The notes under the pieces were generated by a model. It had not been told where the DNA came from and searched no databases. It saw nothing but the letters and a program-made list of their open reading frames with translations. From Deltaproteobacteria bacterium (lineage in GTDB: Bacteria > Bdellovibrionota_C > UBA2361 > J135): DNA of 64,000 nucleotides. Both the position numbers and the translations under genes were made by a program. Location: positions 15,406-79,405 of the forward strand of contig JACKAH010000002.1 of assembly GCA_020635175.1 (NCBI GenBank), in the 5' to 3' direction. Shown here piece by piece: positions 1,105 through 60,104 of this stretch (position 1 is its first letter; each line of letters opens with the position of its first letter).

Positions 1105-1528
1105 CTTTTACGTGATTATTGTCTCTTAGTTCAAATCTTAATGTATGTGTTCCAGATTCTAATTCAGCTGGAAGTTGATATGAGTCATCTATTTGCCAGC
1201 TGGTAAGATGGTGGTCCGTCCCATCAGCATCATCTAAGTAAACATGATAGTGACCCTCATTGGCGTCGGGGTTGAGTTCGTCGCTTAAATGGTTTGTCTC
1301 CGTGTCATGTGCGGACTCTGTTCTTAAGTTAAAAGGCACTGCTAGTGTAAAATTTGTTGTCTCAACCATGTATGAAACAAGATCGCCTGGTGCATAGCTA
1401 GATTTGTTGTCAGTAAGACTTGCTCTTATGGTGACTGATTCGTCAACCAAAGAGACACTTTCACTTGAGGTGCTTGAACCTCCACAGCCAATTACTAATA
1501 AAAGAAGTGGTGCAATTAGTTTTTTCAT
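1067..1528 (-). CDS. Putative metal-binding lipoprotein (His-rich; resembles the DUF4399 family)
   Basis: Lipobox MKKLIAPLLLLVIGC at the internal Met at 1528. The 35 codons upstream of it in the tracked ORF do not look like signal sequence. His/Asp-rich motifs are present: ESAHDTETNH and NEGHYHVYLDDADGTDHH. Confidence 0.55.
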   Translation of the reverse strand: MKKLIAPLLLLVIGCGGSSTSSESVSLVDESVTIRASLTDNKSSYAPGDLVSYMVETTNFTLAVPFNLRTESAHDTETNHLSDELNPDANEGHYHVYLDDADGTDHHLTSWQIDDSYQLPAELESGTHTLRFELRDNNHVKVGPEDVVFFDVK

Positions 1529-1720
1529 TTTTAAAACTCCGAAAAAGATTTCATTCATTGAATGCAATTTCGGGGACTTAAAATCAATGTGGCAAAATGT
1601 CGCGCTGTATGGCTTTGATTTTACTGAGTTCAATCAGGATTTTTTTAAGATTTAGATAGTTTTCTGCTCTGTATGTAGTATATTCATTTGGTTTCTAGTT
1701 AAAGATAGAGGGTGGTTACT

Positions 1721-17792: not shown

Positions 17793-18548
17793 ATGCATTT
17801 TACTCGAGTTGATTGCGATATCTATGATGGGAGTAAGAGCTCCGAAGGAGGAGAGAGCTTTGCTGTGCTTAATCCCTCAGGAACTCCCGGTTGTGCAGTC
17901 TTAGGTATGACATCTGCTGCAAGAGATGGAGTTAGTAGCCACGTCGCCTCAAGGCTAGCGTTAGAGCATTACTTAGATTCGATTCAGAATTTTTTCCAAA
18001 CTAAGTCTATAAATCAAACATCAATAGAGTTGCAAACTGACTTGAATCTTGAAGTCCTAGAGGATGCTTTTCGTGAAGCAAATAGATCGGTCTACGAATT
18101 TGGTCATAAGCTAGCGGCAGGCGGACGAATGGCAGCTTCATTAATGGGAGTTGTGCTTTGTGGAGATGTTATCGCTGCTGGTAAGGCAGATACAGGAAAT
18201 GCTTACCTGATAAGAAGAGGCGAGGTCGTTCCATTTTTTGTTGAGGATGCAGCATTAAACGACAAGGGCAAACAACAAAACTATGTCGGCGCGCACTCAA
18301 TGGTTAATGTAGAGCTGTCATCAATTTTCCTAGAATCTAATGATAGAATAGTCGTCTTTTCGCGATCTCTTACAGAAAATGAGGAATCGAAGTTCATTGA
18401 TTTAGCACCAGGGTTAGATACTACTGTTGTTAAGCCGGCTAAGTTATTTGCAGAAAAGATTTTTTCTAGGTCGAGCGAACCACCATCTATTTTTGTAATC
18501 TCAATCGGACCTGCTGGAATATATCTTTCTGAGGAGATTGCTGTATGA
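17793..18548 (+). CDS. PP2C/SpoIIE-like fold protein with degenerate catalytic motifs
   Basis: GMTSAARDGVSSHVASRLALE resembles PP2C GMGGHxxGExAS. MAASLMGVVLCGDVIAAGKADTGNAYLIRRGEV resembles TTLvaaliddrlyvANvGDSRaYLlRdGel, but the GDSR aspartate position reads DTGN. Its stop overlaps the gnd start (ATGA). Confidence 0.5.
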   Translation: MHFTRVDCDIYDGSKSSEGGESFAVLNPSGTPGCAVLGMTSAARDGVSSHVASRLALEHYLDSIQNFFQTKSINQTSIELQTDLNLEVLEDAFREANRSVYEFGHKLAAGGRMAASLMGVVLCGDVIAAGKADTGNAYLIRRGEVVPFFVEDAALNDKGKQQNYVGAHSMVNVELSSIFLESNDRIVVFSRSLTENEESKFIDLAPGLDTTVVKPAKLFAEKIFSRSSEPPSIFVISIGPAGIYLSEEIAV

Positions 18549-20862: not shown

Positions 20863-23019
20863 CTAGGCGTTACTAGCATGAAATTGACCAGGTTCAATTC
20901 TGGCCGATAAGATATTTATTTCATCCAAAAGTTCTGACGGGGTAAAAGGCTTTGAGAGGAATCTGACTATTTTGTCCGGTAATTCATCAATTGAGAGCTG
21001 ATTCGGAGCATGTCCAGATATGAGCAAAATCGCAATATCAGGGAGCAGCTTCCTAACCTTTTGGGCTAAGATCTCACCACTAGTATCAGGTAATCCTACA
21101 TCTGAAATTATAAGATCGAAATCCTTCGTTCTTTCTATGGTATTGAGAGCCTCTGTTCCATTTCTAACTGAAACGAGTTCAAAACTATGGGGTTCTAAAA
21201 TTTGAACAATTAGATCTCTGACAAGTTCTTCATCTTCACAAATCAGTATTTTTTTAATTCTATTTCTATTTGCTGCAGACTCGAGTGTTGAAAATCTCTG
21301 TTCTAGCTCTTCGAGCGCAGCAGGGAAAAAAATTGAGAAAGTTGTTCCTTTATTTAACTCAGATTGTACCGCTATATGTCCGTTTGAGTTTTTGACTATT
21401 CCATGTACCGTAGAAAGGCCTAATCCTGTTCCCTTTTCAAGCCCTTTGGTTGTATAAAATGGCTCAAAGATTCTAGATATAGTTTCTTTAGACATGCCTG
21501 TTCCATCATCACTTACAGATAGCTTGAAATGCAGTCCAGTAGTTTGGACCGCATTTTCTAAGACGTATTTTTGATCGATATAAACGGTTTCTGTCCTTAT
21601 TTCTATAACTCCCGATGAGTCAACAGCATCCCTAGCGTTTAGGGTTAAATTTAACAAGATCTGCTCCAGATGAATTGGGTCCAATTTAACCTTTGTGTTC
21701 TTTGTCAGAAAATTTCGTTTCAAAGTAATTGTCTTAGGTAATAGCTGTAGCAAAAGAGAGCATGTTCCTTCGATAATCTCATTTGGGTTAACTACTTTGG
21801 GCGTTATGATCTCTTTACGCCCAAACGTTAGAAGTTTGTTGACCAAGGCAGCCGCACGCTCGCTTGCATTTTCAATTTGCTGAACATTATTTCGAATATT
21901 GGAATCTTGAGATAGCTGCTGAATTACCAATTGTGCGTTCCCTAATATAACCCCAAGCATGTTGTTAAAATCATGAGCAACACCACCGGCTAGTTGTCCG
22001 ATTGCCTCCATTTTTTGTGATTGAAGCAATTGCTTCTCAAGTTCTAGTTGTATCTTCTCTGCCTCTTTTTTCTCTGAGATATCTCGACCAACAACAAGTA
22101 AGCCTTTTCTTTCGCCGTTGCTGTGAAATACAGGGACTTTTATTACGTCAACTGTTATCTGCGAGCCGTCGTCTTTCTTAACTACTTGCTCACCTCTCCA
22201 GAAATGGGTTTGCTGCCAAGCGTCCTCATCGCTATCCTTGCAGTTCTCCCAGATCTTCTGATACTGCGGTGAGATCTCAGCAAGTTCCTTGCCAGTTTTT
22301 CCCCTAAAAACCGCTTCGTTAAGTCCAAAGATCTTTTGACCAAAAGAATTAACCTCAAGCCATCGCCCTTTAGAGTCCTTAAAACATACAAAATCAGGAA
22401 TTGCATTAATTAAGGTTCTTAATTGTTTTTCTTTCTCTGCAATCTCAGTCTTACTTACCGCAAGTTCTGAGATAATTATCTCGCGTTCCAATTCTGCAGA
22501 TACTCTTGGGACTAGCGACTGTAAACTCTCAATAATTTTATCCGAGTTTGGTAAGTCTTTTTTGTTCATCACGGACAATAGTCCAATAACTTCACCGCTA
22601 GTGTTGAAAAGAGGAGTTCCGGCATATGCATGGATCTGTTTTTCAACTAGATAAGTGTCATCTGGAAAACGTTCTTGTACATTTGAAGGATAGATACAAA
22701 GTCGTTTGTCAGAGACATTTTGACAGGGGGTCCCACTCATTTGATATGAAAAGCAATCTAGGAACTCATCCTTTTCTAGAAAAGCTATCGTAGAAATTGT
22801 TTGATCTAAAAAATTAGTTTTGCCAATAAACGCAAAATCGACCTGATGTTCCTTGCATAGTTTTTTAAGTAAGGCTTTGAAAAAAGAGTCTCCTACAAAA
22901 CAGGTTAGGTCGTCTTGTGGGGGCCTGTTACTAAAGATTTCTAGTGATTTACTAAGATTTTCTGACAACCCTCTTAGAATGGGCGTTGAGTGTCTCTTTT
23001 TTTTAAGTGCATTGTTCAA
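20863..23019 (-). CDS. Hybrid sensor histidine kinase/response regulator (GAF-PAS-HisKA-HATPase-REC)
   Basis: H-box GGVAHDFNNMLGVI. N, G1 and G2 boxes (LNLTLNARDA, DDGTGM, GTGLGLS). C-terminal receiver (ILICEDEE...IISDVGLPDTSG...LSKPF). Confidence 0.9.
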   Translation of the reverse strand: MNNALKKKRHSTPILRGLSENLSKSLEIFSNRPPQDDLTCFVGDSFFKALLKKLCKEHQVDFAFIGKTNFLDQTISTIAFLEKDEFLDCFSYQMSGTPCQNVSDKRLCIYPSNVQERFPDDTYLVEKQIHAYAGTPLFNTSGEVIGLLSVMNKKDLPNSDKIIESLQSLVPRVSAELEREIIISELAVSKTEIAEKEKQLRTLINAIPDFVCFKDSKGRWLEVNSFGQKIFGLNEAVFRGKTGKELAEISPQYQKIWENCKDSDEDAWQQTHFWRGEQVVKKDDGSQITVDVIKVPVFHSNGERKGLLVVGRDISEKKEAEKIQLELEKQLLQSQKMEAIGQLAGGVAHDFNNMLGVILGNAQLVIQQLSQDSNIRNNVQQIENASERAAALVNKLLTFGRKEIITPKVVNPNEIIEGTCSLLLQLLPKTITLKRNFLTKNTKVKLDPIHLEQILLNLTLNARDAVDSSGVIEIRTETVYIDQKYVLENAVQTTGLHFKLSVSDDGTGMSKETISRIFEPFYTTKGLEKGTGLGLSTVHGIVKNSNGHIAVQSELNKGTTFSIFFPAALEELEQRFSTLESAANRNRIKKILICEDEELVRDLIVQILEPHSFELVSVRNGTEALNTIERTKDFDLIISDVGLPDTSGEILAQKVRKLLPDIAILLISGHAPNQLSIDELPDKIVRFLSKPFTPSELLDEINILSARIEPGQFHASNA

Positions 23020-30557: not shown

Positions 30558-31877
30558 ATGTCATCGTTGGCAGTAGTTGGAGCACAGTGGGGAGATGAAG
30601 GTAAGGGTAAACTTGTAGATTACTTAACTTCTCAAGCTGATTTTGTGGTCCGTTTTCAAGGTGGAAATAATGCTGGGCATACACTAGTTGTAGACGGGGT
30701 GACTACAAAATTAAGCCTTGTTCCATCAGGGATATTGCATGAGGCAACTTGCTGCTTACTTGGTGCAGGGGTTGTCGTGAATCCGGAAGTTTTTATTCAG
30801 GAAGTTAATGGACTCAAAAAAGCTGGAGTCAGAGTTGATCCATCAAGGCTCGTAATCGATCGAGACGCTCATCTGATTTTGGATTATCACATTGAGATCG
30901 ATAAGGCTCGAGAAGAGATGCGAGGCAAAGATAAGATAGGTACAACAGGGCGTGGAATTGGCCCATGTTATGAAGATCGTGCGCAGAGAGTCGGAGTTAG
31001 GTTTGCTGAGCTAAGGCTCTTAAGTGAGCTTAAGCCAAGATTGCAAAAGCTTGTTGAGCATAAAAATAGATATCTTGTTGATCTACTAGGTGCTGAATCA
31101 CCTGTCGACTTTGATAGTCTCTGGTCAAAACTAGAAAACATCTCAGAGATTTTATCTCCTTATATCGGTGATGTGAGTCATTTATTAAATCGTGCAAGAT
31201 TACAGGAAAAGAAGATTGTTTTTGAAGGAGCACAAGGAACGCTTCTAGATCAAACTTTTGGAACGGTTCCGTTTGTTACCTCTTCCAATACTATTTCTGG
31301 TGCAATCACTACCGGCTGCGGTGTTGGCCCAAAGACAGTTGATTATGTCTTAGGGGTAGCAAAGGCTTATTGTACAAGAGTAGGAAGTGGACCATTCCCG
31401 ACAGAATTAGAAGGTGAGACAAGTGACTATCTAAGAGAAAAGGGTAGTGAATTTGGAACTGTAACAAATAGGCCGAGAAGGTGTGGTTGGTTTGATGCAG
31501 TCGCAATGAAAAGGGCAGTTGGTTTGAATGGTCTTGATTCATTAGTGATAACAAAGCTAGACGTCCTTAGTGGACTTGAGGACTTGAAGGTTTGTATAAA
31601 GTATAAAATTGATGGCAAGGAGATAGAAGAATATCCGTCACTTTCTTCTGAGCTTGAAAAAGTTGAGCCTGAGTACATAACTCTTGATGGATGGAGTGAA
31701 GATATCACTTCTGTACGCAAATGGCATGAGTTGCCCCCTGCTGCTAGATTGTATATCAGCACGTTATCTGAAATCCTTGGTATCCCTGTAAGTATTGTGA
31801 GTGTCGGAGCGGAGAGAGAATCAACTCTCTTTTCTAGAAGTGCTAAATTTGTGAAAAACTTTATGATGTCAGTATGA
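30558..31877 (+). CDS. purA: Adenylosuccinate synthetase
   Basis: GAQWGDEGKGK, GGNNAGHT, GTTGRGIGPCYEDR and RRCGWFD. Confidence 0.97.
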   Translation: MSSLAVVGAQWGDEGKGKLVDYLTSQADFVVRFQGGNNAGHTLVVDGVTTKLSLVPSGILHEATCCLLGAGVVVNPEVFIQEVNGLKKAGVRVDPSRLVIDRDAHLILDYHIEIDKAREEMRGKDKIGTTGRGIGPCYEDRAQRVGVRFAELRLLSELKPRLQKLVEHKNRYLVDLLGAESPVDFDSLWSKLENISEILSPYIGDVSHLLNRARLQEKKIVFEGAQGTLLDQTFGTVPFVTSSNTISGAITTGCGVGPKTVDYVLGVAKAYCTRVGSGPFPTELEGETSDYLREKGSEFGTVTNRPRRCGWFDAVAMKRAVGLNGLDSLVITKLDVLSGLEDLKVCIKYKIDGKEIEEYPSLSSELEKVEPEYITLDGWSEDITSVRKWHELPPAARLYISTLSEILGIPVSIVSVGAERESTLFSRSAKFVKNFMMSV

Positions 31878-33232
31878 ACGTAATAGCAAAAAAAACTCAG
31901 AATCAATATTCGATTCTTATAATCGATGACGAGGAAGCAATTCGTAAAACATTAACGAGCGTCTTTCAAGATGAAGGATACTTAGTAGAGAGTGCGTCTG
32001 ATGGAGAAAAAGGCTTAGCTGCTCTGTCAAAAGTTAAGCCCTCATTGGTTCTGCTTGATATCTGGATGCCAGGAATGGATGGTATTGAAACTTTGAAGCG
32101 TATTAGAGAGGAGTTTCCTGATCTGCCTGTAATCATGATTAGTGGACACGCTACAATTGCAACAGCTACTGAAGCAATGAAGCTAGGTGCTGCCGATTTT
32201 ATTGAGAAACCGCTTGATTTGAGCAGTACTTTGGAATCAGCCAGAAGATCTCTTGGCATGCTAGATGAAGCTAAGCAAGAGAGTGGATATCGCCAGTTCG
32301 CAGAAAATTGTGTTGACCAATCGGAGAATTTTAAAAATCGAAAAATAGAAGCGCTTAATCCAATTGTATTTGCAGATAGATCGCTTGCAGGAAGGTCCTT
32401 TCCACAAAGAACACTTAAGAGTTCAGCTTTATTGTATGGACAAGGTCTTCACAGTGGTAAAAAAAGTGGTTTAATATTGGAGCCATTGCCTGAAAATTCT
32501 GGAATTCACTTTATTGGAGTAAGTGAAACTACAGCAGTTCCTGCACACGTTAACTTTGTAGAATCAACAGGTTTTGCCACAACGGTTCGACTTGGAAAAA
32601 CACAAGCAGGTACGATTGAGCATTTGATGTCAGCTCTGCATGCATATGGTATTACCAATTTGTTAATTAAGTGTAATGGCGAAGTCCCAGTAATGGATGG
32701 GTCAGCGATTGAATTTTGTTCGCTTTTTGATGATATAGGTGTTGAAGACCAGAATGGCGAGTGGTTTGAGATCGAGATAAAAGAAAAGCTCACTGTTGGT
32801 AATGACTCTGAATTTATTACAATTGAGCCTGCTGATTCATTTACAATTGACTATACTCTTTCCTATCCTGAACCATTAGGTCATCAACATATGGTTTTTA
32901 CACTGAATGACGTTGATTCGTATAAGCAAGAGATTGCACCTGCTAGAACATTTGGGTTTGTTAAAGACATAGAGTGGCTTCAAAGCCAGGGACTTGCTTT
33001 AGGAGGTCGATTCGATAACTTCGTTCTTTTTGGCGAAGAGGGAACGATTAATTGCGAATTACGATTTGAGAATGAGCCAGTTAGGCACAAAGTTTTAGAT
33101 GCCATTGGTGATTTATTCCTGCTAGGCCGTCGAATCCGTGGTAAGGTAACTGCTAGAATGAGCGGACATTCTGATAATATCGCTCTACTTTCAAAGATAA
33201 GAGACAAGCTAAAAGAGGCGGCGCAGAATTAG
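31874..33232 (+). CDS. lpxC: Response-regulator receiver domain fused to UDP-3-O-acyl-N-acetylglucosamine deacetylase
   Basis: N-terminal REC, about residues 10-125: ILIIDDEE, LLDIWMPGMDG, MISGH, IEKPL. C-terminal LpxC from RTLKSSALLYGQGLHSGKKS onward: TIEHLMSALHAYGI, FGFVKDIEWLQSQGLALGG, VRHKVLDAIGDLFLLG and SGHSDN. The start overlaps the purA stop (ATGA). Confidence 0.9.
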   Translation: MNVIAKKTQNQYSILIIDDEEAIRKTLTSVFQDEGYLVESASDGEKGLAALSKVKPSLVLLDIWMPGMDGIETLKRIREEFPDLPVIMISGHATIATATEAMKLGAADFIEKPLDLSSTLESARRSLGMLDEAKQESGYRQFAENCVDQSENFKNRKIEALNPIVFADRSLAGRSFPQRTLKSSALLYGQGLHSGKKSGLILEPLPENSGIHFIGVSETTAVPAHVNFVESTGFATTVRLGKTQAGTIEHLMSALHAYGITNLLIKCNGEVPVMDGSAIEFCSLFDDIGVEDQNGEWFEIEIKEKLTVGNDSEFITIEPADSFTIDYTLSYPEPLGHQHMVFTLNDVDSYKQEIAPARTFGFVKDIEWLQSQGLALGGRFDNFVLFGEEGTINCELRFENEPVRHKVLDAIGDLFLLGRRIRGKVTARMSGHSDNIALLSKIRDKLKEAAQN

Positions 33233-33879
33233 TTCCTTCTTAAGCGCTTTTTTCTTTGAACATGCATAAATAGAACTAAGCCTAGAATCCCTAGTATAAG
33301 GAAGGCATATGCCCAAGAAGGCCATTTCTTAGCCTCTTCATAGCTTATCTGCCCAGGGACAGTAAAACTGTTAAGGAAGTTCTTCCTATAATCAAGCTGC
33401 TGGTCATAGTCTTCAAACTTATCCATGTAAGTTAGAATAAAATGCTTATTCTTTGTTGATACCAATGAGACTGATGCAATCAAGTCATTGTCTCCAAGTA
33501 AGTATTTTACGTTTGCAGTTAGGAGATCCCCAATCTTTGTTTTAACCATCTCTGTAGAGAGAATTTCGGCGCCAGTGATGCCAGCTTTTTTATAGTCAGC
33601 CAGAACCTTCTCTGCCCAAGCCTCTTGGCTAATAGTTCTTATTGGCATGGACTTAGCTTGAGGGATTACGTTAAATATCGGAAATTTGTCTGGTATTTTC
33701 TGTACAATAACAGCAACTTCAGGGATTGGATCCTGGCTTAGCATGAAGTTTTCAGGCAGTTCGACAGTAAAGTCGTATTTTGGGTGAGTGAAGATTGTGT
33801 CGTCTGGTTCTTGGGAGAATGCAAAATTGGTCCATAAAAATGCTAAACACGCCAGTACTAATTTCAATCTTAAATTCAT
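33229..33879 (-). CDS. Hypothetical exported protein with a C-terminal membrane anchor
   Basis: N-terminal signal peptide MNLRLKLVLACLAFLWTNFAFSQ. C-terminal TM segment WAYAFLILGILGLVLF followed by a basic tail RKKRLRRN. I recognised no family. Confidence 0.5.
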   Translation of the reverse strand: MNLRLKLVLACLAFLWTNFAFSQEPDDTIFTHPKYDFTVELPENFMLSQDPIPEVAVIVQKIPDKFPIFNVIPQAKSMPIRTISQEAWAEKVLADYKKAGITGAEILSTEMVKTKIGDLLTANVKYLLGDNDLIASVSLVSTKNKHFILTYMDKFEDYDQQLDYRKNFLNSFTVPGQISYEEAKKWPSWAYAFLILGILGLVLFMHVQRKKRLRRN

Positions 33880-34074: not shown

Positions 34075-34575
34075 ATGGCAAGAAAGGTAGCCAAAAAATC
34101 GGCAAAAACAAAAACTAAAGCAAAAACAAAAAAAGCAACTACTCGCAAGAGTACTGCGCGTAAAGGTGCAACAAAGAAAACAGCTAAAAAAGCAAAAACA
34201 ACAAAAACTAAAAAAACAACTACTAAGGCAGCTGCTAAGCCAGCTCCAGTTCAGAAACAACGCAAGGCTTCAGTCCCAAGAAATAGACATACATTAAGCT
34301 ACACACAGACTGAGTGGTTTGATAATGTTATGGGCTTTTGTGGTCTTGAGAAGAGATCTCAAGCTAAAGAACTTTGCACAGATATGAACATGCTTATCTC
34401 TGAGTGCTTGAAGAAAGGATACAAGATTCCTCTTATGGGCCTTGGAAAAATGTATGTAAGAAAAAGCAAAGCTCGTATGGGAAGAAACCCAGCAACTGGT
34501 GAGCCAATCCATATTCCTGCTAAGAAAAGAATCCGTTTTACTGCTTCTAAAGCATTGAAAGAAAACGTTCTATAG
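34075..34575 (+). CDS. HU/IHF-family DNA-binding protein with a lysine-rich, histone H1-like N-terminal extension
   Basis: Residues about 1-65 are K/A/T repeats (KKSAKTKTKAKTKKATTRKSTARKGATKKTAKKAKTTKTKK...). The C-terminus matches the HU fold: GLGKMYVRKSKARMGRNPATGEPIHIPAKKRIRFTASKALKENV. SD aaggag lies upstream. Confidence 0.85.
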   Translation: MARKVAKKSAKTKTKAKTKKATTRKSTARKGATKKTAKKAKTTKTKKTTTKAAAKPAPVQKQRKASVPRNRHTLSYTQTEWFDNVMGFCGLEKRSQAKELCTDMNMLISECLKKGYKIPLMGLGKMYVRKSKARMGRNPATGEPIHIPAKKRIRFTASKALKENVL

Positions 34576-34673: not shown

Positions 34674-36872
34674 CTATCTTTTAAGGTTTTCGAAGATAAC
34701 TTCCGCAATATCTTTAACCTGCATGCTATCGTCACGTTCAGTTAGCTTGACCCCATCTTCCATCATCTGCATGCAGAAAGGACACCCTGTTGCGATTTTA
34801 TTAGCACCAGTTTCGGCAGCTTGATCCGTTCGGAGTACATTTACACGTTCTCCAATCTTTAGATCCATCCAGAAATGTCCACCCCCAGCGCCACAGCACA
34901 TTCCTTTTTCTTTGCTTTTTTCCATCTCGAGTATTCGCAGACCGCTTACAGATTTAAGAGTCTCTCTTGGTGCGTCGTATTCATCATTGTACCGACCTAA
35001 ATAACATGGGTCATGAAAGGTGTAGCTTTGATCTGATTCATTAGTGTTTATCTTGCCTTGTGCAATCAGCCGCTTCAATAAAACAGAGTGGTGAATGATT
35101 TCAACTTCTTGACCATCATCGAGGTTTCCGAATTGAGGATACTCATTCTTAATTGTGTTAAAGCAGTGCGGGCAGTTTGCAACGAGGGTTTTGAACTGAA
35201 CTGATTTTAGCGTCTCGATATTTTGCTTAGCCAAGCTTTGAAATAGATTCTCTTCTCCTAGTCTTCGAGCTGGATCTCCAGTGCAGCCCTCAGCTGTGCC
35301 TAATATTCCGAATGATAACCCAGCATGTTCCATTAGTTGAACGAGGGAGCGAGCAATACTCTGTTTTCTTTTATCGTAAGCCGACACACAACCTACCCAA
35401 TAGAGGTAATCCACTGAGTCACCGGGTTCTAAGATCGGCACTTTTAACCCATCAAGCCATAGGATTCTATCTTCTGGTGCCCCATAAGGGTTTCCTCGAG
35501 TTTCAAGTGCCTTGAGGGTTGCCTGAGCTTCAGATGGGATTTCTCCTTCCATTAAAACCATATTTCTTCTGTTTTCGACAATTTGGTTTACATGGTTAAT
35601 TCCAACTGGACAGGCCTCAACGCATGCCATGCATGTTGTGCAGGACCAGAATGTGTCTTGGCTGATAACTTCGCCAGAAATTCTTTGCTCGGCAGATTTT
35701 CCAATTAACAAAACCGAATCATGTATCTTTTCATTCGAGGCTCTATAGCTTCCAGCAGTACTCGTGCCTTCTGAAAAGTCTGATGTGCTAACTCCGCTTG
35801 ACTGCAAAAAAAATGTTTGTAATTTCGAATCAAGTTCTACCAGAGGTTTAGGCATGAGAGACTCAGTTAATTCTCCTTTGCTATGTAAGGCTAGCGCGTG
35901 ATTTCTTGTATCTAAAATAAGCCACTTTGGAGAGAGTGGTTTGCCCGAAGCGTAAGCAGGGCAGACTGCTTGGCAGCGCCCACAGCTGGTACAAGCATCG
36001 AGATCGAGCAATTGCTTCCAGCTGTAGTCCTTAATTGTGCCAAGGCCAAGAGAAAACTCCTCACCAGCTTCAATCAATTCTTCAATGTTTCCAGGTGATG
36101 GAAGAGCACCTTTTGCTCTGCCAGAGTCTTGAAAGAACAGATTCGCAGAACTTGAGATTACATGAAAAAATTTTGTGTAAGGAAAAATTGCAGCTACAAA
36201 GAAAACTGTTAAAGTATGAAACCACCAGACGGAAAAATGAAGAGCTGATGTAGCTTCAAGAGAAAGACTCCAAAAAAATTTCGAAACCAAGAGTCCAATT
36301 GGAGAATATGCAGCCCAAGGATCATTAGTTGCATGAATTCTAAGCCCCTCGAGCAAAAATCCTTGTATGATTAGTAGGGCAAGTATTGATAACATCAGGG
36401 AGTCAGCAAAGCGGTTATGGAGTTGATCTGCTTTTTGAATGTATCGTCTATGTGCTACGACAGCGGTCCCGAGCAATACGCCAAATCCAAGAACATCAGA
36501 TAGGATTGTCACCGCTAAGTAAAACTCTCCCTCGTAAATTCTGATTCCAAGGTCATGATCTATTAGCACCATTGATGTGGCAAAAAGTAAGGAAAGGAAG
36601 CCTACATAGATCAAGGTATGAGCAATTCCAGGTGTCTTTTCACGAATTGTCTTTCTTTGAAAAAGAACGTCTCGAACTAAATTATGAAATCTTTCAATAT
36701 ATCGACCAAGGTGCTCTGGTTCAGCTTTTCCAGAGGACCAAAGCTCGACTCTTCGGAAAACTCCGGTAAAACCTATAAAAAGTGACACGACCATCAAGCT
36801 ATACATGATGATTACGTTGGCTGGGCTATCAATATTCCAAAGGATCTCTCTAGTCGCTTCTGCAGTATTCAT
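34674..36872 (-). CDS. Membrane-anchored (Fe-S)-binding oxidoreductase: polytopic His-rich N-terminal domain fused to a 2x[4Fe-4S] ferredoxin and two CCG (HdrD/GlpC/DsrK-like) domains
   Basis: About 6 TM helices in the first 250 aa or so. CTSCGRCQAVCP and CTTCMACVEACP. CCG-type cysteines at CPHCFNTIKNEY, DPCYLGRY, MCCGAGGG and GCPFCMQM. Confidence 0.8.
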   Translation of the reverse strand: MNTAEATREILWNIDSPANVIIMYSLMVVSLFIGFTGVFRRVELWSSGKAEPEHLGRYIERFHNLVRDVLFQRKTIREKTPGIAHTLIYVGFLSLLFATSMVLIDHDLGIRIYEGEFYLAVTILSDVLGFGVLLGTAVVAHRRYIQKADQLHNRFADSLMLSILALLIIQGFLLEGLRIHATNDPWAAYSPIGLLVSKFFWSLSLEATSALHFSVWWFHTLTVFFVAAIFPYTKFFHVISSSANLFFQDSGRAKGALPSPGNIEELIEAGEEFSLGLGTIKDYSWKQLLDLDACTSCGRCQAVCPAYASGKPLSPKWLILDTRNHALALHSKGELTESLMPKPLVELDSKLQTFFLQSSGVSTSDFSEGTSTAGSYRASNEKIHDSVLLIGKSAEQRISGEVISQDTFWSCTTCMACVEACPVGINHVNQIVENRRNMVLMEGEIPSEAQATLKALETRGNPYGAPEDRILWLDGLKVPILEPGDSVDYLYWVGCVSAYDKRKQSIARSLVQLMEHAGLSFGILGTAEGCTGDPARRLGEENLFQSLAKQNIETLKSVQFKTLVANCPHCFNTIKNEYPQFGNLDDGQEVEIIHHSVLLKRLIAQGKINTNESDQSYTFHDPCYLGRYNDEYDAPRETLKSVSGLRILEMEKSKEKGMCCGAGGGHFWMDLKIGERVNVLRTDQAAETGANKIATGCPFCMQMMEDGVKLTERDDSMQVKDIAEVIFENLKR

Positions 36873-38757: not shown

Positions 38758-39345
38758 ATGGATCAAGAGGCAACTTCATCGTCTGAGGATGTAAACGAGA
38801 ATGAAGAAACTCAACAGGCTGAGGAAACAGCTGGTGAAACAAAGGTTAAATTTGCAACAGACAGATCTAAGGTAGATCAACTTCTTCAAGCAGACGTGGC
38901 TAGTTTGGGGAATAAGCCTGAAGTAAGTATCTCAGCAGTTGTTAAGATGATGGGTCTTGCAACATCTACTGAAGTAAAACTTTTAGAAGGAAAGTTTGAC
39001 CTGGTGTTAAGTCGTCTAAATAGCATGACTATGCGACTTGAAAGATTGATGCAAGATTTAGGAGATTTACCCTCAGGTGGAGATTTCGAGAGACTTGAAG
39101 CCCAATTTGTCGTCCTGCGTGGTCATATTAAAAACACATTAGATAACTTTTCAACGGGATCTGACGATGACGTTGACCAAGAAGAAGAGGCAAGTAAGGC
39201 AAAGATTAAAGAGTTTTTAAAGCAAAATTCACAAGCAATTGATACGAAAGAACTCTCAAGCGAAGCTTCAAAAGATTCGAGTGAAGAGCAAGAAGAGTTA
39301 GAAACTCCAGTTCAGGAAGAACAGGAAATTTCTGAAGAGGGATAA
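38758..39345 (+). CDS. Hypothetical acidic coiled-coil protein
   Basis: Glu/Asp-rich termini. The central segment VKMMGLATSTEVKLLEGKFDLVLSRLNSMTMRLERLMQDL has heptad character. No family assigned. Confidence 0.45.
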   Translation: MDQEATSSSEDVNENEETQQAEETAGETKVKFATDRSKVDQLLQADVASLGNKPEVSISAVVKMMGLATSTEVKLLEGKFDLVLSRLNSMTMRLERLMQDLGDLPSGGDFERLEAQFVVLRGHIKNTLDNFSTGSDDDVDQEEEASKAKIKEFLKQNSQAIDTKELSSEASKDSSEEQEELETPVQEEQEISEEG

Positions 39346-52470: not shown

Positions 52471-53514
52471 TCATTTTGCAAGAAATTTCTTGAATCTTTG
52501 TAGGATCTCTGGAAGTTTAGCTAATGCTGCAACCTGTCTTTTCCAGAGACTAGCAGGTATTGCTGGTATTCCTGCGTAATCTCCAGGTTCACGATAGGTT
52601 CCAAGTGCCCCAGATCTTCCAGCAAACCTACAGCCATCTGCAATTGTTGTATGATCCGCCACTCCAGCACCGCCACCTAAGGTAACTTGATTTCCGATTT
52701 TAGCGCTACCAGCTATGCCGGCTTGTCCACAAATGATAGTGGCCTGTCCGATCGTAACGTTATGTCCAACCTGCACAAGGTTATCAATCTTAGTCATTAG
52801 CCCGACTTTTGTGTTTCCGAGAGTAGCACGGTCAATACAGGTATTAGCGCCGATATCAACAAAATCTTCTAAGATAACCTTGCCAACTTGTGGTACGGGT
52901 AAAATACGATTGTTCTCTGCGTAGTAGCCAAATCCATCGGAGCCTATAACGGCGCCATTTTGTATAGTCACAAAATTTCCAAGAATAGTTCGTTCACGAA
53001 TAGATGCGTGTGAATGGATAGTTGTGCCACTTCCTACTTCAACTTCAGAGTAGATCGAAACGTGTGCAAAAATTGTAGAGTTGTCACCAATCTTTACATT
53101 AGGACCGATATAAACAAATGGATCTATATGCACATTCTTGCCAATTTCAGCAGTTGGATCTATTTCAGCATTCTTACTAATGCTGCGCTCTTCTTGAACC
53201 GACTCTAAGAGATGAGGTACTAGCTTTGACATCGCTGCAATAGGGTCATCTACTATTATTAATGCTAGTTTATCTTTCGCACTCTCAGTATCTAGCTCTT
53301 TCTTTACAAATAGGGCTACAATTGCCTTTGAAGAGATTATCCTTTCTAATGTCTTAGGACTTGATTTTGTATATAGTGAGATAGCATTATCGACTGGTTC
53401 ATCATTTGAACATATTGCAGAGACCGTAACTTCTCCTGAGCCTAGTACCTCGCCGTTGACGATTTTGGCTATCTCTTTAACTGAAAGTGACTTATTGCAT
53501 GGTCTAAAGTACAT
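52471..53514 (-). CDS. lpxD: UDP-3-O-(3-hydroxyacyl)glucosamine N-acyltransferase
   Basis: Extended left-handed beta-helix hexapeptide repeats (IGDNSTIFAHVSIY..., IGANTCIDRATLGNT, VQVGHNV). Confidence 0.92.
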   Translation of the reverse strand: MYFRPCNKSLSVKEIAKIVNGEVLGSGEVTVSAICSNDEPVDNAISLYTKSSPKTLERIISSKAIVALFVKKELDTESAKDKLALIIVDDPIAAMSKLVPHLLESVQEERSISKNAEIDPTAEIGKNVHIDPFVYIGPNVKIGDNSTIFAHVSIYSEVEVGSGTTIHSHASIRERTILGNFVTIQNGAVIGSDGFGYYAENNRILPVPQVGKVILEDFVDIGANTCIDRATLGNTKVGLMTKIDNLVQVGHNVTIGQATIICGQAGIAGSAKIGNQVTLGGGAGVADHTTIADGCRFAGRSGALGTYREPGDYAGIPAIPASLWKRQVAALAKLPEILQRFKKFLAK

Positions 53515-58703: not shown

Positions 58704-60104
58704 ATGTTTAATCAAATTACCCATCCGTTAGTTCTTAAGTATCTGCCAGCTGCAAAACCTGAAAATTATGATGATCTATTTGATGAGCTGCTCGCTGCTG
58801 CTAAGAGGACTTCAACGGGAGAAGAAGGGCAAAAATTTGCTGCACTTCAAAGTTTTGTGCCGGTGGAGACGAGCGAAGCTCTATCTGAGCAGATCTTAGT
58901 AATTGATGTAGGTGGCACATACGTTCGAGTTGCACTTAGAGCAATTGATGCTGAGGGAAATTGTAATTGGCAAGCTCTGCTTAGGGCTAGAAATTATGAA
59001 CTGATTAAGGAGGATATCTCTGGAACTCTATTTTCTCAGATGAGAGAGTGTGTGGTTCGTCAGGTTATAGATAAGCTTGAGGAACTTTCGATTGATAAAG
59101 CTTCTATTAGTGGTCTTGGTATAGTTTGGTCAAATGCACTTAATTGCTATGAGCTTAAGGAAAATGGATGCAGAGGTGTCTCTGGTCAAGTTGTAGGAAA
59201 AGATCACGGTAAGTTTTATGTTAAGGGAGAGCCTTGGAATCCAGATCTACATGATGGTGATGATATCGGTCTTGCTTTCTTAGAGACCTTCAAGGAATTT
59301 GGCTTTAAAATGAAAGCCTTTGTGATTTCAAACGATACTATCTTTACTCAAAAAACTGTACCAGAAGCAACTTCAGGTATGGTTGCTTCTACTGGAACAA
59401 ACGTGACTTATATTGAGCCAGGAGAGAAGCTGCTTAGAAACTCAGAAGCTGGAAATGCTTTTATAGTTCCAGAAAAATTTCAGCACAAAGCAGATCAGAT
59501 CTCAGAAGATCTTTTTAATATAGAATGTTTTATAGCAGGTCGAGCTATGCAACGTAGGTTTGCTTCTCATTTAGTTTATTTGGCTAAAGAGATTTGCTCA
59601 GATAATTCACAGTCTAAAGAGTTAAGAGGAAGATGTCAGAAGATCTTAGATAGATTATGTAGGGATAATTTTTATCTAACTGCATTTAAAGGTAAAGACT
59701 TAACAGCGCTCGTCTCAAAGGACTTTGAGCGTTTTCTTGAGCTGCGTGAAGACGATGCTGAGTTATATCGTGACGATGAGTTTCTAGAGTTACTACGACA
59801 AATTGCACTAAATATTGTGCTGCGAGGTGGAACACATGCCGCAATGTTAGCATACGTCTCTGTTTACAATCAGTTAGAGAACGGAGAAGATGGTTTAGTT
59901 ATTGCCTTAGACAGTAGTCAAGCACATCTATTACCTTTTTATTATGACGCCTTTAAACAAGAGTTTAATCAGATTCTAAAATCTCGTTGCCCAGGTAAAG
60001 ATATATCTGTTGAGCTTATTGATCAGGGTGAAGGTAGGGTGATAACAGTTCCTATGCGCGGTGCTGCTTCTGCAGTAAATGATTTTTTAGCAATGGGTGC
60101 ATAA
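58704..60104 (+). CDS. Hexokinase-fold sugar kinase (divergent)
   Basis: ILVIDVGGTYVRVAL compares with hexokinase LAxDLGGTNFRV. VISNDTIFT compares with LxNDTVGT. VASTGTNVTYIE compares with GTGxNxxYxE. VIALDSSQAHLLPFY compares with DGSVYxxxPxF. Confidence 0.65.
   Translation: MFNQITHPLVLKYLPAAKPENYDDLFDELLAAAKRTSTGEEGQKFAALQSFVPVETSEALSEQILVIDVGGTYVRVALRAIDAEGNCNWQALLRARNYELIKEDISGTLFSQMRECVVRQVIDKLEELSIDKASISGLGIVWSNALNCYELKENGCRGVSGQVVGKDHGKFYVKGEPWNPDLHDGDDIGLAFLETFKEFGFKMKAFVISNDTIFTQKTVPEATSGMVASTGTNVTYIEPGEKLLRNSEAGNAFIVPEKFQHKADQISEDLFNIECFIAGRAMQRRFASHLVYLAKEICSDNSQSKELRGRCQKILDRLCRDNFYLTAFKGKDLTALVSKDFERFLELREDDAELYRDDEFLELLRQIALNIVLRGGTHAAMLAYVSVYNQLENGEDGLVIALDSSQAHLLPFYYDAFKQEFNQILKSRCPGKDISVELIDQGEGRVITVPMRGAASAVNDFLAMGA

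What the first reader, a model, noticed from the sequence alone, without database searches (positions are those of the whole stretch)
31874..33232. Receiver domain fused to LpxC: possible phosphorelay control of the committed step of lipid A synthesis
A single 452-aa ORF encodes a complete CheY-like receiver followed by a full LpxC.
- **Receiver residues:** acidic pair in ILIIDDEE, phospho-acceptor in LLDIWMPGMDG, S/T in MISGH, and Lys in IEKPL.
- **LpxC residues:** TIEHL, VRHKVLDAIGD and SGHSDN. I judge these by alignment from memory to the E. coli E78/H79, H238/D242/D246 and H265 contexts.

In established models, LpxC level is controlled by FtsH/LapB proteolysis. I am not aware of a described LpxC gated by an N-terminal receiver domain. 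The ORF is also translationally coupled to purA (ATGA overlap).
Basis: partly seen in the sequence, partly recalled or inferred. Interest (0 to 1): 0.7.

Follow-up and report, generated by a model that had tools for sequence, protein, structure and literature searches.

The report
NtrX-type receiver fused to LpxC
This is a real, widely conserved gene that joins a phosphorylation-controlled receiver switch, derived from the regulator NtrX, to LpxC, the enzyme that commits a cell to making lipid A; this suggests that several poorly studied bacterial phyla control outer-membrane synthesis directly through a sensor kinase rather than through the proteolysis known from E. coli.

Summary
ORF 31874..33232 (+) encodes a 452-aa protein with a complete receiver domain (aa 13-119), a roughly 55-aa disordered linker and a complete LpxC domain (aa 178-442).

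- **Not an artefact:** two independent assemblies encode the identical protein. About 60 species-representative genomes, and at least 120 clusters at 90% identity, carry the same architecture.
- **Both domains look functional:** across 61 homologues the receiver phosphorylation pocket and all LpxC zinc and catalytic residues are invariant.
- **Origin:** the receiver is NtrX-type.
  - In relatives the fusion sits directly after a DUF4390 gene and an NtrY-type kinase, in the position NtrX normally occupies.
  - A second large family (about 730 aa, including Nitrospinota) fuses a whole NtrX-like regulator to LpxC.
  - The LpxC domains of both fusion types form one clade, so the short form most likely arose by loss of the AAA+/HTH module.
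- **Fit with known biology:** NtrYX lowers lpxC transcript levels in two alphaproteobacteria, and a response regulator in Desulfovibrio vulgaris has lpxC as its only target.
- **No E. coli-type degron:** none of the 61 fusions has the long C-terminal tail that carries the FtsH degron in E. coli LpxC.

I found no description of this fusion in the searchable literature. Not shown here: enzymatic regulation by phosphorylation, the cognate kinase in this genome (none is adjacent), and whether this is the organism's only LpxC.

The parts
31874..33232 (+). REC-LpxC fusion gene (452 aa; GenBank protein MCB9029638.1, annotated there as plain LpxC)
   Evidence: ORF; both domains; identical protein in independent assemblies.
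31910..32230 (+). Receiver (REC) domain, aa 13-119, NtrX-type
   Evidence: Pfam PF00072, E = 1.8e-32. The best NCBIfam receiver hit is NtrX, and the best PDB receiver hits are 4d6x and 5m7n. It is 48-61% identical to the receivers of NtrX-like regulators encoded beside NtrY-type kinases, against 31-39% for other receivers in the same loci. The AF2 model shows alternating strands and helices at pLDDT 95-98.
32057..32059 (+). Codon GAT for D62, the predicted phospho-acceptor aspartate, within LLDIWMPGMDG
   Evidence: Sequence. Invariant in 61 of 61 fusion homologues, together with D18, D19, S90 and K112.
32231..32404 (+). Inter-domain linker, aa 120-177. It is variable and mostly disordered, and carries a clade-specific motif, (I/L)NPxVF..L.G, at aa 160-172.
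   Evidence: Linker length is 41-72 aa with no sequence conservation across 61 homologues. AF2 pLDDT is below 50 for aa 134-155 and about 80 for aa 160-170.
32405..33199 (+). LpxC (UDP-3-O-acyl-GlcNAc deacetylase) domain, aa 178-442
   Evidence: PF03331, E = 9.8e-82. TIGR00325 scores above its cutoff. Catalytic and zinc residues are invariant in 61 of 61. The model superposes on solved LpxC structures at TM 0.84-0.96 and rmsd 1.4-2.2 A.
30558..31877 (+). purA (adenylosuccinate synthetase). Its stop codon overlaps the fusion's start (ATGA). It is the last-but-one gene of a rimP-nusA-infB-DHH-truB-purA run.
   Evidence: The same synteny occurs in L007, L012, L052 and L092.
33229..33879 (-). Convergent 216-aa gene of unknown function whose sequence reads as a signal peptide plus a C-terminal membrane anchor. 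It overlaps the fusion's stop by 4 nt, so it marks the end of the transcription unit.
   Evidence: No Pfam or NCBIfam hit. A homologue sits in the same position in L007, L009, L081 and L082.
52471..53514 (-). lpxD, the pathway step immediately after LpxC. It shows that this organism has a lipid A pathway.
   Evidence: TIGR01853 equivalog scores 322.2 bits against a cutoff of 242.5.
20863..23019 (-). The only histidine kinase in the window: a GAF-PAS-HisKA-HATPase-REC hybrid, CckA-like. It is a candidate phosphodonor by default only, with no specific evidence.
   Evidence: Pfam and NCBIfam. It shows only generic 22-30% identity to NtrY-type kinases.

Best explanation
The gene encodes a catalytically competent LpxC whose N-terminus is a functional phospho-receiver inherited from an NtrX-family response regulator. 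A sensor kinase phosphorylates D62. That kinase is NtrY-type in the ancestral arrangement and is unidentified in this genome. The canonical S90/F109 switch then changes the receiver's signalling surface, and this alters LpxC output across a long flexible linker. The change could come from an intramolecular contact with the catalytic domain, as in CheB, or from phosphorylation-driven dimerisation. Flux into lipid A would therefore be set post-translationally by a two-component signal. This would replace two other modes of control: the transcriptional control of lpxC by NtrYX-type systems seen elsewhere, and the FtsH/LapB proteolysis of E. coli.

Shown here: the architecture, its conservation, intact active sites in both domains, the NtrX ancestry, and kinase adjacency in relatives.

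Inferred: that phosphorylation changes LpxC activity, in which direction, which kinase acts in this organism, and that this is the housekeeping LpxC.
For: 1. Both domains are complete and score highly. The modelled LpxC domain superposes on LpxC crystal structures.
2. In 61 fusion homologues down to 43% identity, the receiver residues D18, D19, D62, S90 and K112 are invariant and F/Y109 is kept. The LpxC residues E249, H250, T359, H405, K406, D409, D413 and H432 are also invariant. A vestigial receiver would not keep this pocket.
3. The family is broad. The top 120 clusters at 90% identity all have this architecture. About 60 species-representative genomes carry it, labelled Bdellovibrionota, Syntrophorhabdaceae, Syntrophaceae/Thermodesulfobacteriota, Thermodesulfovibrionia, Aminicenantes/Acidobacteria and Chrysiogenia. 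There are about 20 clusters at 50% identity.
4. NtrX ancestry:
   - The best receiver hits are NtrX.
   - The receiver is 48-61% identical to the receivers of NtrX-like regulators, against 31-39% for other receivers.
   - The receiver tree groups the fusions with NtrX-like regulators.
5. Cognate-kinase context in relatives:
   - In L048 the order is DUF4390 > NtrY-type kinase > REC-LpxC.
   - NtrY-type kinases lie directly upstream in L031, L035, L038 and L043.
   - 14 Bdellovibrionota loci carry a divergent pair, a PAS-HisKA-HATPase kinase plus an HDOD protein.
6. Fusions of a whole NtrX-like regulator to LpxC form a second large family. All of the top 120 clusters carry REC, Sigma54_activat and LpxC, and none of the 120 has GAFTGA.
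7. The LpxC domains of short and long fusions form one clade. In 100 of 100 bootstrap replicates a split overlaps the fusion set at Jaccard 0.90 or more. Mean identity to the window's domain is 51% for long fusions and 39% for stand-alone LpxC.
8. In other lineages a stand-alone lpxC lies immediately upstream of DUF4390-NtrY-NtrX.
9. Independent biology:
   - Deleting ntrYX raises lpxC mRNA 8.8-fold and increases LPS in R. sphaeroides (PMC7240162).
   - NtrYX inhibits lpxC transcription in C. crescentus (PMC12444477).
   - The D. vulgaris regulator DVU2934 has lpxC as its single target (PMC3333781).
   - DUF4390 (PlrP) is a third component of a subset of NtrYX-family systems (PMC13001219).
10. 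All 61 fusions end 5-16 aa after the LpxC domain, while E. coli LpxC has 27 residues after the aligned region, where its FtsH degron lies.
11. The window encodes lpxD, so a lipid A pathway exists.
Against: - No kinase, DUF4390 or HDOD gene is adjacent in this window or in its closest relatives (L007, L012, L052, L092). The gene sits at the end of a housekeeping operon.
- No biochemical data exist for any family member.
- The AF2 output gave no coordinates or PAE, so no receiver-LpxC interface could be examined. The pTM of 0.72 is ambiguous.
- The linker is long, variable and disordered, which fits an evolutionary remnant as well as a functional tether.
- LpxC is monomeric in known systems, so activation by dimerisation has no precedent for this enzyme.
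- I could not test whether these genomes also carry a stand-alone lpxC.
- The lpxC-NtrYX adjacency was found through a receiver peptide pattern, so it is ascertainment-biased. Three informative contexts of stand-alone lpxC retrieved by LpxC similarity alone showed no such adjacency.
Confidence: 0.6

Rival explanations
1. The receiver controls how much LpxC there is or where it is, not its catalysis. Phosphorylation would gate degradation by a AAA+ protease or recruitment to the membrane. This would be a functional substitute for the FtsH/LapB degron system, comparable to the phospho-dependent adaptors RssB and CpdR.
For: - In E. coli, LpxC is controlled mainly through its abundance (PMC12444477).
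- The fusions lack the C-terminal degron region.
- RssB models are among the receiver hits.
- A long disordered linker could serve as a site where a protease engages.
Against: - Nothing in the sequence specifically points to a degron or a membrane anchor.
- The receiver is closer to NtrX than to RssB.
- This rival shares every untested step with the main model.
Confidence: 0.15
2. The fusion is an accessory paralogue or a sensor rather than the housekeeping LpxC. The LpxC domain would bind or turn over the lipid A precursor to report pathway status, or would act on a related substrate, while a separate canonical LpxC carries the main flux.
For: - The fusion LpxC domains form their own clade, apart from almost all stand-alone LpxCs.
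- In the long form, LpxC hangs on the C-terminus of a DNA-binding regulator. That position could suit a ligand-sensing module.
- Whether a second lpxC is present could not be checked.
Against: - The protein exceeds the curated cutoff of the lpxC equivalog model.
- All zinc, catalytic and substrate-contacting residues tested are invariant in 61 of 61.
- The short form has no other output domain, so LpxC must be the output.
- The window and its close relatives place the gene in a conserved housekeeping operon.
- No second LpxC lies in the 64-kb window.
Confidence: 0.12
3. The receiver is an inert evolutionary leftover of an old NtrX-LpxC gene fusion, and LpxC works constitutively.
For: - The short form appears to derive from a longer NtrX-LpxC protein by loss of domains.
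- The linker is unconserved.
- The gene has no kinase partner nearby in this genome.
Against: - The phospho-acceptor pocket and the switch residues are invariant across lineages that share only 36-65% identity.
- The receiver is among the best-conserved parts of the protein.
- Kinases remain adjacent in at least 19 relatives' loci.
Confidence: 0.08
4. The fusion is an assembly or frameshift artefact that joins two separate genes.
For: Two low-coverage MAG loci have a broken linker: L018 has an in-frame TGA and L066 has a frameshift.
Against: - The window has a single uninterrupted ORF.
- Three independent assemblies encode the identical protein.
- Hundreds of homologues have the same architecture and length.
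Confidence: 0.01

Closest known systems
NtrX of the NtrYX two-component family (including Bordetella PlrSR with its DUF4390 partner PlrP)
   Same: - The receiver is NtrX-type by sequence.
- In relatives, the fusion follows a DUF4390 gene and an NtrY-type kinase (NtrY_N, HAMP, PAS, HisKA, HATPase_c).
- NtrYX is already linked to the cell envelope and to lpxC expression.
   Different: - The window protein has no AAA+ domain and no HTH. Its output is an enzyme, not DNA binding.
- No ntrY or DUF4390 gene lies in the window.
CheB (receiver plus methylesterase), the textbook response regulator with an enzymatic output
   Same: It has an N-terminal receiver, a flexible linker and a C-terminal hydrolase. 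From general knowledge, the unphosphorylated CheB receiver occludes the active site and phosphorylation relieves the block. This is the most likely working analogy.
   Different: The catalytic fold and chemistry are unrelated, because LpxC is a zinc amidase. The linker here is longer (41-72 aa). No interface could be examined here.
Long NtrX-LpxC fusions (about 730 aa: REC, sigma54-type AAA+, lid, sometimes HTH_8, then LpxC), found here in sequences labelled Nitrospinota, Schekmanbacteria and Tectomicrobia
   Same: - They share the same receiver type.
- Their LpxC domains fall in the same clade (51% mean identity to the window's domain).
- An NtrY-type kinase lies upstream in L061 and L063.
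   Different: They retain the AAA+ and DNA-binding modules. They are probably the ancestral form of the short fusion. They are also uncharacterised: sources name them either 'LpxC' or 'NtrX'.
Desulfovibrio vulgaris DVU2931-DVU2934 system (PMC3333781)
   Same: It is a two-component system dedicated to lpxC, which is the single DNA target of the regulator DVU2934. The paper also notes that lpxC lies directly upstream of the orthologous operon in Syntrophobacter fumaroxidans. That resembles the lpxC > DUF4390 > NtrY > NtrX clusters seen here.
   Different: Control there is transcriptional and the proteins are separate. I did not test whether DVU2934 is orthologous to the NtrX-like regulators found here.
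E. coli LpxC under FtsH/LapB(YciM)/YejM proteolytic control
   Same: It is the same enzyme at the same committed step, with identical catalytic residues.
   Different: E. coli LpxC has no receiver and carries a C-terminal degron tail. The fusions end 5-16 aa after the domain.
Bifunctional LpxC-FabZ proteins (NCBIfam NF009667)
   Same: This is a known case of LpxC within a multidomain protein.
   Different: The partner is a metabolic enzyme at the C-terminus, not a signalling domain at the N-terminus. The window protein scores far below that model's cutoff (197 against 465 bits).

Membership tests
LpxC (UDP-3-O-acyl-GlcNAc deacetylase; PF03331 / TIGR00325) | Full-length match to the curated family models, above their cutoffs | tested here: met
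   PF03331 scores 274.9 bits (cutoff 27) over model positions 1-266 of 268. The TIGR00325 equivalog scores 247.6 bits (cutoff 187.25).
LpxC (UDP-3-O-acyl-GlcNAc deacetylase; PF03331 / TIGR00325) | Zinc ligands H79, H238 and D242, and catalytic or substrate residues E78, H265, T191, K239 and D246 (E. coli numbering) | tested here: met
   H250, H405, D409, E249, H432, T359, K406 and D413 align to those residues. All are invariant in 61 of 61 fusion homologues.
LpxC (UDP-3-O-acyl-GlcNAc deacetylase; PF03331 / TIGR00325) | LpxC fold | tested here: met
   The AF2 model has pLDDT mostly above 90 in the domain. Foldseek matches solved LpxC structures at TM 0.84-0.96 (normalised to target) and rmsd 1.4-2.2 A. 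This is a predicted model, not a solved structure.
LpxC (UDP-3-O-acyl-GlcNAc deacetylase; PF03331 / TIGR00325) | Deacetylase activity, and being the genome's working LpxC | not testable with these tools
   No biochemistry is available. Only 64 kb of the genome is visible, with no second LpxC in it and lpxD present.
Response-regulator receiver domain (PF00072) | Match to the family model and a (beta-alpha)5 fold | tested here: met
   PF00072 scores 112.2 bits (cutoff 30.2). The AF2 model shows five alternating strands and helices at pLDDT 95-98.
Response-regulator receiver domain (PF00072) | Phosphorylation pocket (acidic pair, acceptor Asp, Ser/Thr, Lys) plus the aromatic switch residue | tested here: met
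   D18, D19, D62, S90 and K112 are present in 61 of 61 homologues. Position 109 is F in 59 and Y in 2.
Response-regulator receiver domain (PF00072) | Phosphotransfer from a cognate histidine kinase | not testable with these tools
   Kinases are adjacent in relatives: NtrY-type in L031, L035, L038, L043 and L048, and a PAS kinase in 14 clade-A loci. None is adjacent in the window.
NtrX family response regulators | NtrX-type receiver sequence | tested here: met
   - The top NCBIfam receiver hit is NtrX, at 115.7 bits. That covers the receiver only and is far below the full-length cutoff of 600.
- The top PDB receiver hits are 4d6x and 5m7n. From memory, these are Brucella NtrX.
- The receiver is 48-61% identical to NtrX-like regulators encoded beside NtrY-type kinases.
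- The receiver tree agrees.
NtrX family response regulators | Central sigma54-type AAA+ domain and C-terminal HTH | tested here: not met
   The window protein has no AAA+ or HTH hit. It is therefore not an NtrX, but a derivative that keeps only the NtrX receiver. The long fusions do have these domains.
NtrX family response regulators | Encoded next to ntrY, often with a DUF4390 gene | tested here: not met
   The 64-kb window has no NtrY or DUF4390 homologue. The feature is met in the relatives L048, L031, L035, L038 and L043.
E. coli-type FtsH/LapB-regulated LpxC | C-terminal tail that carries the FtsH degron | tested here: not met
   Seven residues follow the aligned region in the query, against 27 in E. 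coli LpxC. Tails are 5-16 aa in all 61 fusions. Whether LapB or FtsH is present could not be checked.

The most novel reading that the evidence does not exclude
[quoted passage not shown] It would operate in at least six phyla through two related architectures, REC-LpxC and whole-NtrX-LpxC. These fusions would also act as a 'Rosetta stone', showing that the conserved core job of the enigmatic NtrYX family is to match lipid A and outer-membrane synthesis to an envelope or redox signal. In that reading, the transcriptional effects on lpxC seen in alphaproteobacteria and Desulfovibrio are the unfused version of the same circuit.
Probability: 0.4. Interest if true: 0.85.

Novelty: new variant of a known kind. 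Interest (0 to 1): 0.72.

Why it matters
LpxC is the flux-controlling, essential enzyme of lipid A synthesis and a major antibiotic target. All established control mechanisms act through proteolysis (FtsH/LapB/YejM), partner proteins (from memory, MurA in Pseudomonas) or transcription.

A receiver domain wired directly to LpxC would be a new, fast, signal-dependent mode of control. It occurs in ecologically important but poorly studied groups: Bdellovibrionota-like lineages, syntrophs, Aminicenantes, and, in the long form, Nitrospinota nitrite oxidisers.

It also gives a concrete and testable handle on two open questions:
- What the NtrYX family fundamentally controls.
- How bacteria that lack an E. 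coli-type LpxC degron balance LPS against phospholipid synthesis.

The proteins are soluble, two-domain and easy to assay, so the hypothesis can be tested directly.

Tried and rejected
1. **Assembly or frameshift artefact.** Rejected. The two broken examples, L018 and L066, have single lesions inside the linker of low-coverage MAGs.
2. **Pseudo-receiver.** Rejected, because the pocket is invariant.
3. **A cognate kinase in the window.**
   - tblastn with NtrY-type kinases, DUF4390, the clade-A PAS kinase, HDOD and a PilS-like kinase found nothing specific.
   - Pfam annotation of about 50 ORFs found only one kinase, a CckA-like hybrid 9 kb away.
4. **The clade-A PAS kinase (c7) as a trimmed NtrY.** Rejected. 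It shows only 21-27% generic identity.
5. **The PilS/PilR-like pair upstream of the Aminicenantes fusions as partner.** Considered unlikely. Its receiver is 46% identical and falls with the outgroups in the receiver tree.
6. **A less biased sample of stand-alone lpxC neighbourhoods** (7 look-ups). Four contigs were too short. The three usable ones showed no NtrYX next to lpxC, so the adjacency is lineage-specific and I cannot estimate how often it occurs.
7. **Receiver-LpxC interface from the AF2 model.** Not possible, because no coordinates or PAE are exposed. Foldseek against the PDB returned only single-domain LpxC structures.
8. **Literature searches.** I searched for 'REC-LpxC', LpxC with receiver / output domain / CheY-like / NtrX / Nitrospina, and 'LpxC domain' or 'fused to LpxC'. 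None found a description of the fusion. A look-up by the PMC id I recalled for the 2006 response-regulator census paper returned 'not held', so an incidental listing there cannot be excluded.
9. **First bootstrap attempt.** It timed out and was redone with a numpy implementation of neighbour joining.


Full report
**1. The observation**

The window holds one uninterrupted ORF at 31874..33232 (+) encoding 452 aa. Its ATG overlaps the TGA of purA (ATGA at 31874-31877), and no earlier in-frame start is possible.

Domain hits:
- Pfam finds Response_reg at aa 14-119 (E = 1.8e-32) and a full-length LpxC at aa 178-442 (E = 9.8e-82).
- NCBI's lpxC equivalog model TIGR00325 is exceeded, at 247.6 bits against a cutoff of 187.25.

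The fusion is not an assembly artefact:
- Two independent Logan assemblies and an NCBI MAG encode the identical protein. The NCBI record is MCB9029638.1, named simply 'LpxC'.
- The 120 best database clusters (62-68% identity, 433-465 aa) all carry both domains.

**2. Breadth and conservation**

A scan of one genome per species found full-length fusions in about 60 species. The submitters' labels are Bdellovibrionota/Bdellovibrionales, Syntrophorhabdaceae, Syntrophaceae/Thermodesulfobacteriota, Thermodesulfovibrionia, Acidobacteria/Aminicenantes and Chrysiogenia, with identities down to 43%. All are MAGs. An exhaustive search of 50%-identity representatives shows about 20 distinct clusters of this short architecture, down to about 36% identity.

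In an alignment of 61 fusions:
- The receiver pocket is invariant (D18, D19, D62, S90, K112), and the aromatic switch position is F or Y.
- All eight LpxC zinc, catalytic and substrate residues are invariant.
- The linker between the domains is 41-72 aa with no conserved sequence. The exception is a clade-specific (I/L)NPxVF motif about 12 aa before the LpxC domain.
- All proteins end 5-16 aa after the LpxC domain. E. coli LpxC has 27 residues after the aligned region, and its FtsH degron lies there.

An AlphaFold2 model built on 49 sequences has mean pLDDT 89 and pTM 0.72. Both domains are confident and aa 134-155 are disordered. The LpxC part superposes on solved LpxC structures at TM 0.84-0.96, and no solved structure covers both domains. 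Coordinates and PAE were not available, so I could not examine a receiver-LpxC interface.

**3. Where the receiver comes from**

The receiver is NtrX-type:
- The best NCBIfam receiver hit is NtrX.
- The best PDB receiver hits are 4d6x and 5m7n. From memory, these are Brucella NtrX.

Synteny clustering of 82 loci with Pfam annotation revealed a conserved module: DUF4390, then an NtrY-type kinase (NtrY_N, HAMP, PAS, HisKA, HATPase_c), then an NtrX-like regulator (REC, Sigma54_activat, AAA lid). It appears in three arrangements:
- **Beside a stand-alone lpxC.** In loci labelled Desulfobacterales (including cultured Desulfocicer vacuolatum), Geobacteraceae and Rokubacteria/Methylomirabilota, a stand-alone lpxC lies immediately upstream of the module.
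- **With the short fusion in the NtrX position.** In L048 (Thermodesulfovibrionia) the order is DUF4390 > NtrY-type kinase > REC-LpxC. NtrY-type kinases also lie directly upstream of the short fusions in L031, L035, L038 and L043.
- **With a long fusion after the kinase.** In L061 and L063 the kinase is followed by a 731-aa protein that is a complete NtrX-like regulator fused to LpxC.

A database search with that long protein returned 120 clusters out of the top 120 with the same architecture (718-773 aa, 43-79% identity). Sources label them Nitrospinaceae, Nitrospina, Ca. Nitromaritima, Schekmanbacteria and Tectomicrobia. Some sit on 2-3 Mb contigs, and sources name them either 'LpxC' or 'NtrX'. 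None of the 120 has the GAFTGA sigma54-contact motif. From memory, that absence is typical of NtrX.

The window's receiver is 48-61% identical to the receivers of these NtrX-like regulators, against 31-39% for other receivers in the same loci. A receiver tree groups short fusions, long fusions and NtrX-like regulators together.

The LpxC domains of short and long fusions form one clade, apart from nearly all stand-alone LpxCs:
- In 100 of 100 bootstrap replicates, a split overlaps the fusion set at Jaccard 0.90 or more.
- Mean identity to the window's domain is 51% for long fusions and 39% for stand-alone LpxC.
- Short forms are scattered among long forms within the clade.

The most economical reading is an old ntrX-lpxC gene fusion followed by repeated loss of the AAA+/HTH module. 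The variable linker would be what remains of that module. This rests on neighbour-joining trees only.

**4. Context in this genome**

The gene is the last in a housekeeping run, rimP-nusA-infB-DHH-truB-purA-fusion, followed by a convergent gene of unknown function. The same synteny holds in its closest relatives L007, L012, L052 and L092.

The 64-kb window has no NtrY, DUF4390, HDOD or clade-A kinase homologue. Its only kinase is a CckA-like hybrid 9 kb away on the other strand. The cognate phosphodonor here is therefore unknown.

The larger Bdellovibrionota clade differs. In 14 loci the fusion is divergently paired with a conserved operon of an HDOD protein and a soluble PAS-HisKA-HATPase kinase. 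That kinase is not specifically NtrY-like.

The window also encodes lpxD, so a lipid A pathway is present. No second LpxC lies in the window, but the rest of the genome could not be searched.

**5. Mechanism**

The best-supported model has three steps:
- A sensor kinase phosphorylates D62.
- The conserved S90/F109 switch changes the receiver's surface.
- This modulates LpxC through a long flexible tether, either by an intramolecular contact with the catalytic domain as in CheB, or by dimerisation.

[quoted passage not shown] The direction of the effect is open. By analogy with NtrYX lowering lpxC expression, the phosphorylated form might be the less active one, but that is a guess.

Shown: architecture, conservation, intact sites, ancestry, and kinase adjacency in relatives. 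Inferred: everything about the effect of phosphorylation.

The rivals are control of stability or localisation, an accessory or sensor paralogue, and a vestigial receiver. None can be excluded without biochemistry and whole-genome checks. The invariant pocket argues against a vestigial receiver, and the equivalog score plus invariant catalytic residues argue against a non-enzyme.

**6. Comparison with what is known**

- *Response regulators with enzymatic outputs.* CheB, PleD and RpfG are well-known examples, but I found none with an LpxC output.
- *The 2025 JBC review of lipid A regulation (PMC12444477).* It covers FtsH/LapB/YejM, Lon and partner proteins. [quoted passage not shown] The words 'receiver', 'fused' and 'response regulator' do not occur in it.
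- *R. sphaeroides.* Deleting ntrYX raised lpxC mRNA 8.8-fold and increased LPS, without NtrX binding at lpxC (PMC7240162).
- *D. vulgaris.* The regulator DVU2934 has lpxC as its only target, and the authors noted lpxC next to the orthologous operon in Syntrophobacter (PMC3333781).
- *DUF4390.* The DUF4390 protein PlrP was reported in 2026 as a third component of a subset of NtrYX-family systems. That work covers Proteobacteria only and does not mention lpxC (PMC13001219).

The fusion therefore ties together several separate observations and suggests a direct, dedicated link between NtrYX-type signalling and LpxC.

On membership: the protein is an LpxC and contains a receiver domain, and all testable features of both were met. 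It is not an NtrX, because the AAA+ domain, the HTH and an adjacent ntrY are absent.

**7. Verdict**

The feature is real, conserved and, as far as I could search, undescribed. It is a new variant of a known kind: a response regulator with a new enzymatic output, and equally LpxC with a new regulatory module.

The main uncertainties are:
- the lack of any biochemical evidence;
- the unknown kinase in this genome;
- the untested assumption that this is the organism's working LpxC;
- the ascertainment bias in the lpxC-NtrYX adjacency, which a small less-biased sample could not resolve.

Noticed in passing
L061 751-2946, L063 4636-6831; proteins P0121-P0240: There is a second, large fusion family of about 730 aa, in which a complete NtrX-like regulator (REC, sigma54-type AAA+ without GAFTGA, lid, sometimes HTH_8) is joined to a C-terminal LpxC. 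Sources label the sequences Nitrospinota, Schekmanbacteria and Tectomicrobia, some on 2-3 Mb contigs. Sources name them inconsistently as 'LpxC' or 'NtrX'.
   Followed up: partly
L073, L074, L076-L080, L071 (for example L077 5989-12538): A conserved cluster runs lpxC > DUF4390 > NtrY-type kinase > NtrX-like regulator > RsmD-like methyltransferase > CoaD-like gene. It occurs in loci labelled Desulfobacterales (including cultured Desulfocicer vacuolatum DSM 3385), Geobacteraceae and Rokubacteria. These loci were found through a receiver peptide pattern, so how often the cluster occurs is unknown.
   Followed up: partly
L001-L006, L008, L010, L011, L013, L014, L062, L064, L065 (for example L001 3517-5822): In the larger Bdellovibrionota clade the fusion is divergently paired with a conserved operon of an HDOD-domain protein and a soluble PAS-HisKA-HATPase kinase. 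An HDOD gene also lies 2.6 kb upstream of a long fusion on a 3.25-Mb contig (L091 6496-7353).
   Followed up: partly
window 32351-32389 (aa 160-172): A clade-specific linker motif, (I/L)NPxVF....L.G, lies just before the LpxC domain. It is conserved in the Bdellovibrionota-like and Syntrophorhabdia-like clades only and is modelled at pLDDT about 80, although the rest of the linker is disordered. Its docking site is unknown.
   Followed up: no
window 34075-34575 (+): An HU-type DNA-binding protein (PF00216 at aa 93-165) carries a roughly 90-aa Lys/Ala/Thr-rich, histone-H1-like N-terminal extension.
   Followed up: no
window 34674-36872 (-): A 732-aa membrane iron-sulfur protein combines a nitrate-reductase-gamma-like transmembrane N-terminus, 4Fe-4S ferredoxin-type domains and two CCG domains. 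This resembles a DsrMK/HdrD-like fusion.
   Followed up: no
window 33229-33879 (-): A 216-aa protein whose sequence reads as a signal peptide plus a C-terminal membrane anchor has no family hit. It is convergent with the fusion and overlaps its stop by 4 nt. It is conserved at the same position in L007, L009, L081 and L082.
   Followed up: partly
window 52471-53514 (-): lpxD stands alone, between a VWA-domain gene and a threonine-dehydratase-like gene, without the usual fabZ-lpxA-lpxB neighbours.
   Followed up: no
L018 about 1826; L066 about 6460: Two MAG loci have the fusion broken inside the linker. L018 has an in-frame TGA where relatives have GGA, and L066 has a frameshift. These may be sequencing errors in low-coverage bins, or natural splits of receiver and LpxC.
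   Followed up: partly
L091 7678-15100 and 19195-22172: The long fusion on a 3.25-Mb contig is flanked by envelope-related genes (RlpA-like, LolA, RseP-like protease). It lies 7 kb upstream of rimP-nusA-infB, the same operon that precedes the short fusion in the window.
   Followed up: no
window 58704-60104 (+), 64-1633 (-), 17793-18548 (+), 38758-39345 (+): Several sizeable ORFs have no Pfam hit. One is a 466-aa ORF directly after a phosphomannose isomerase gene, and it also has no NCBIfam hit.
   Followed up: no
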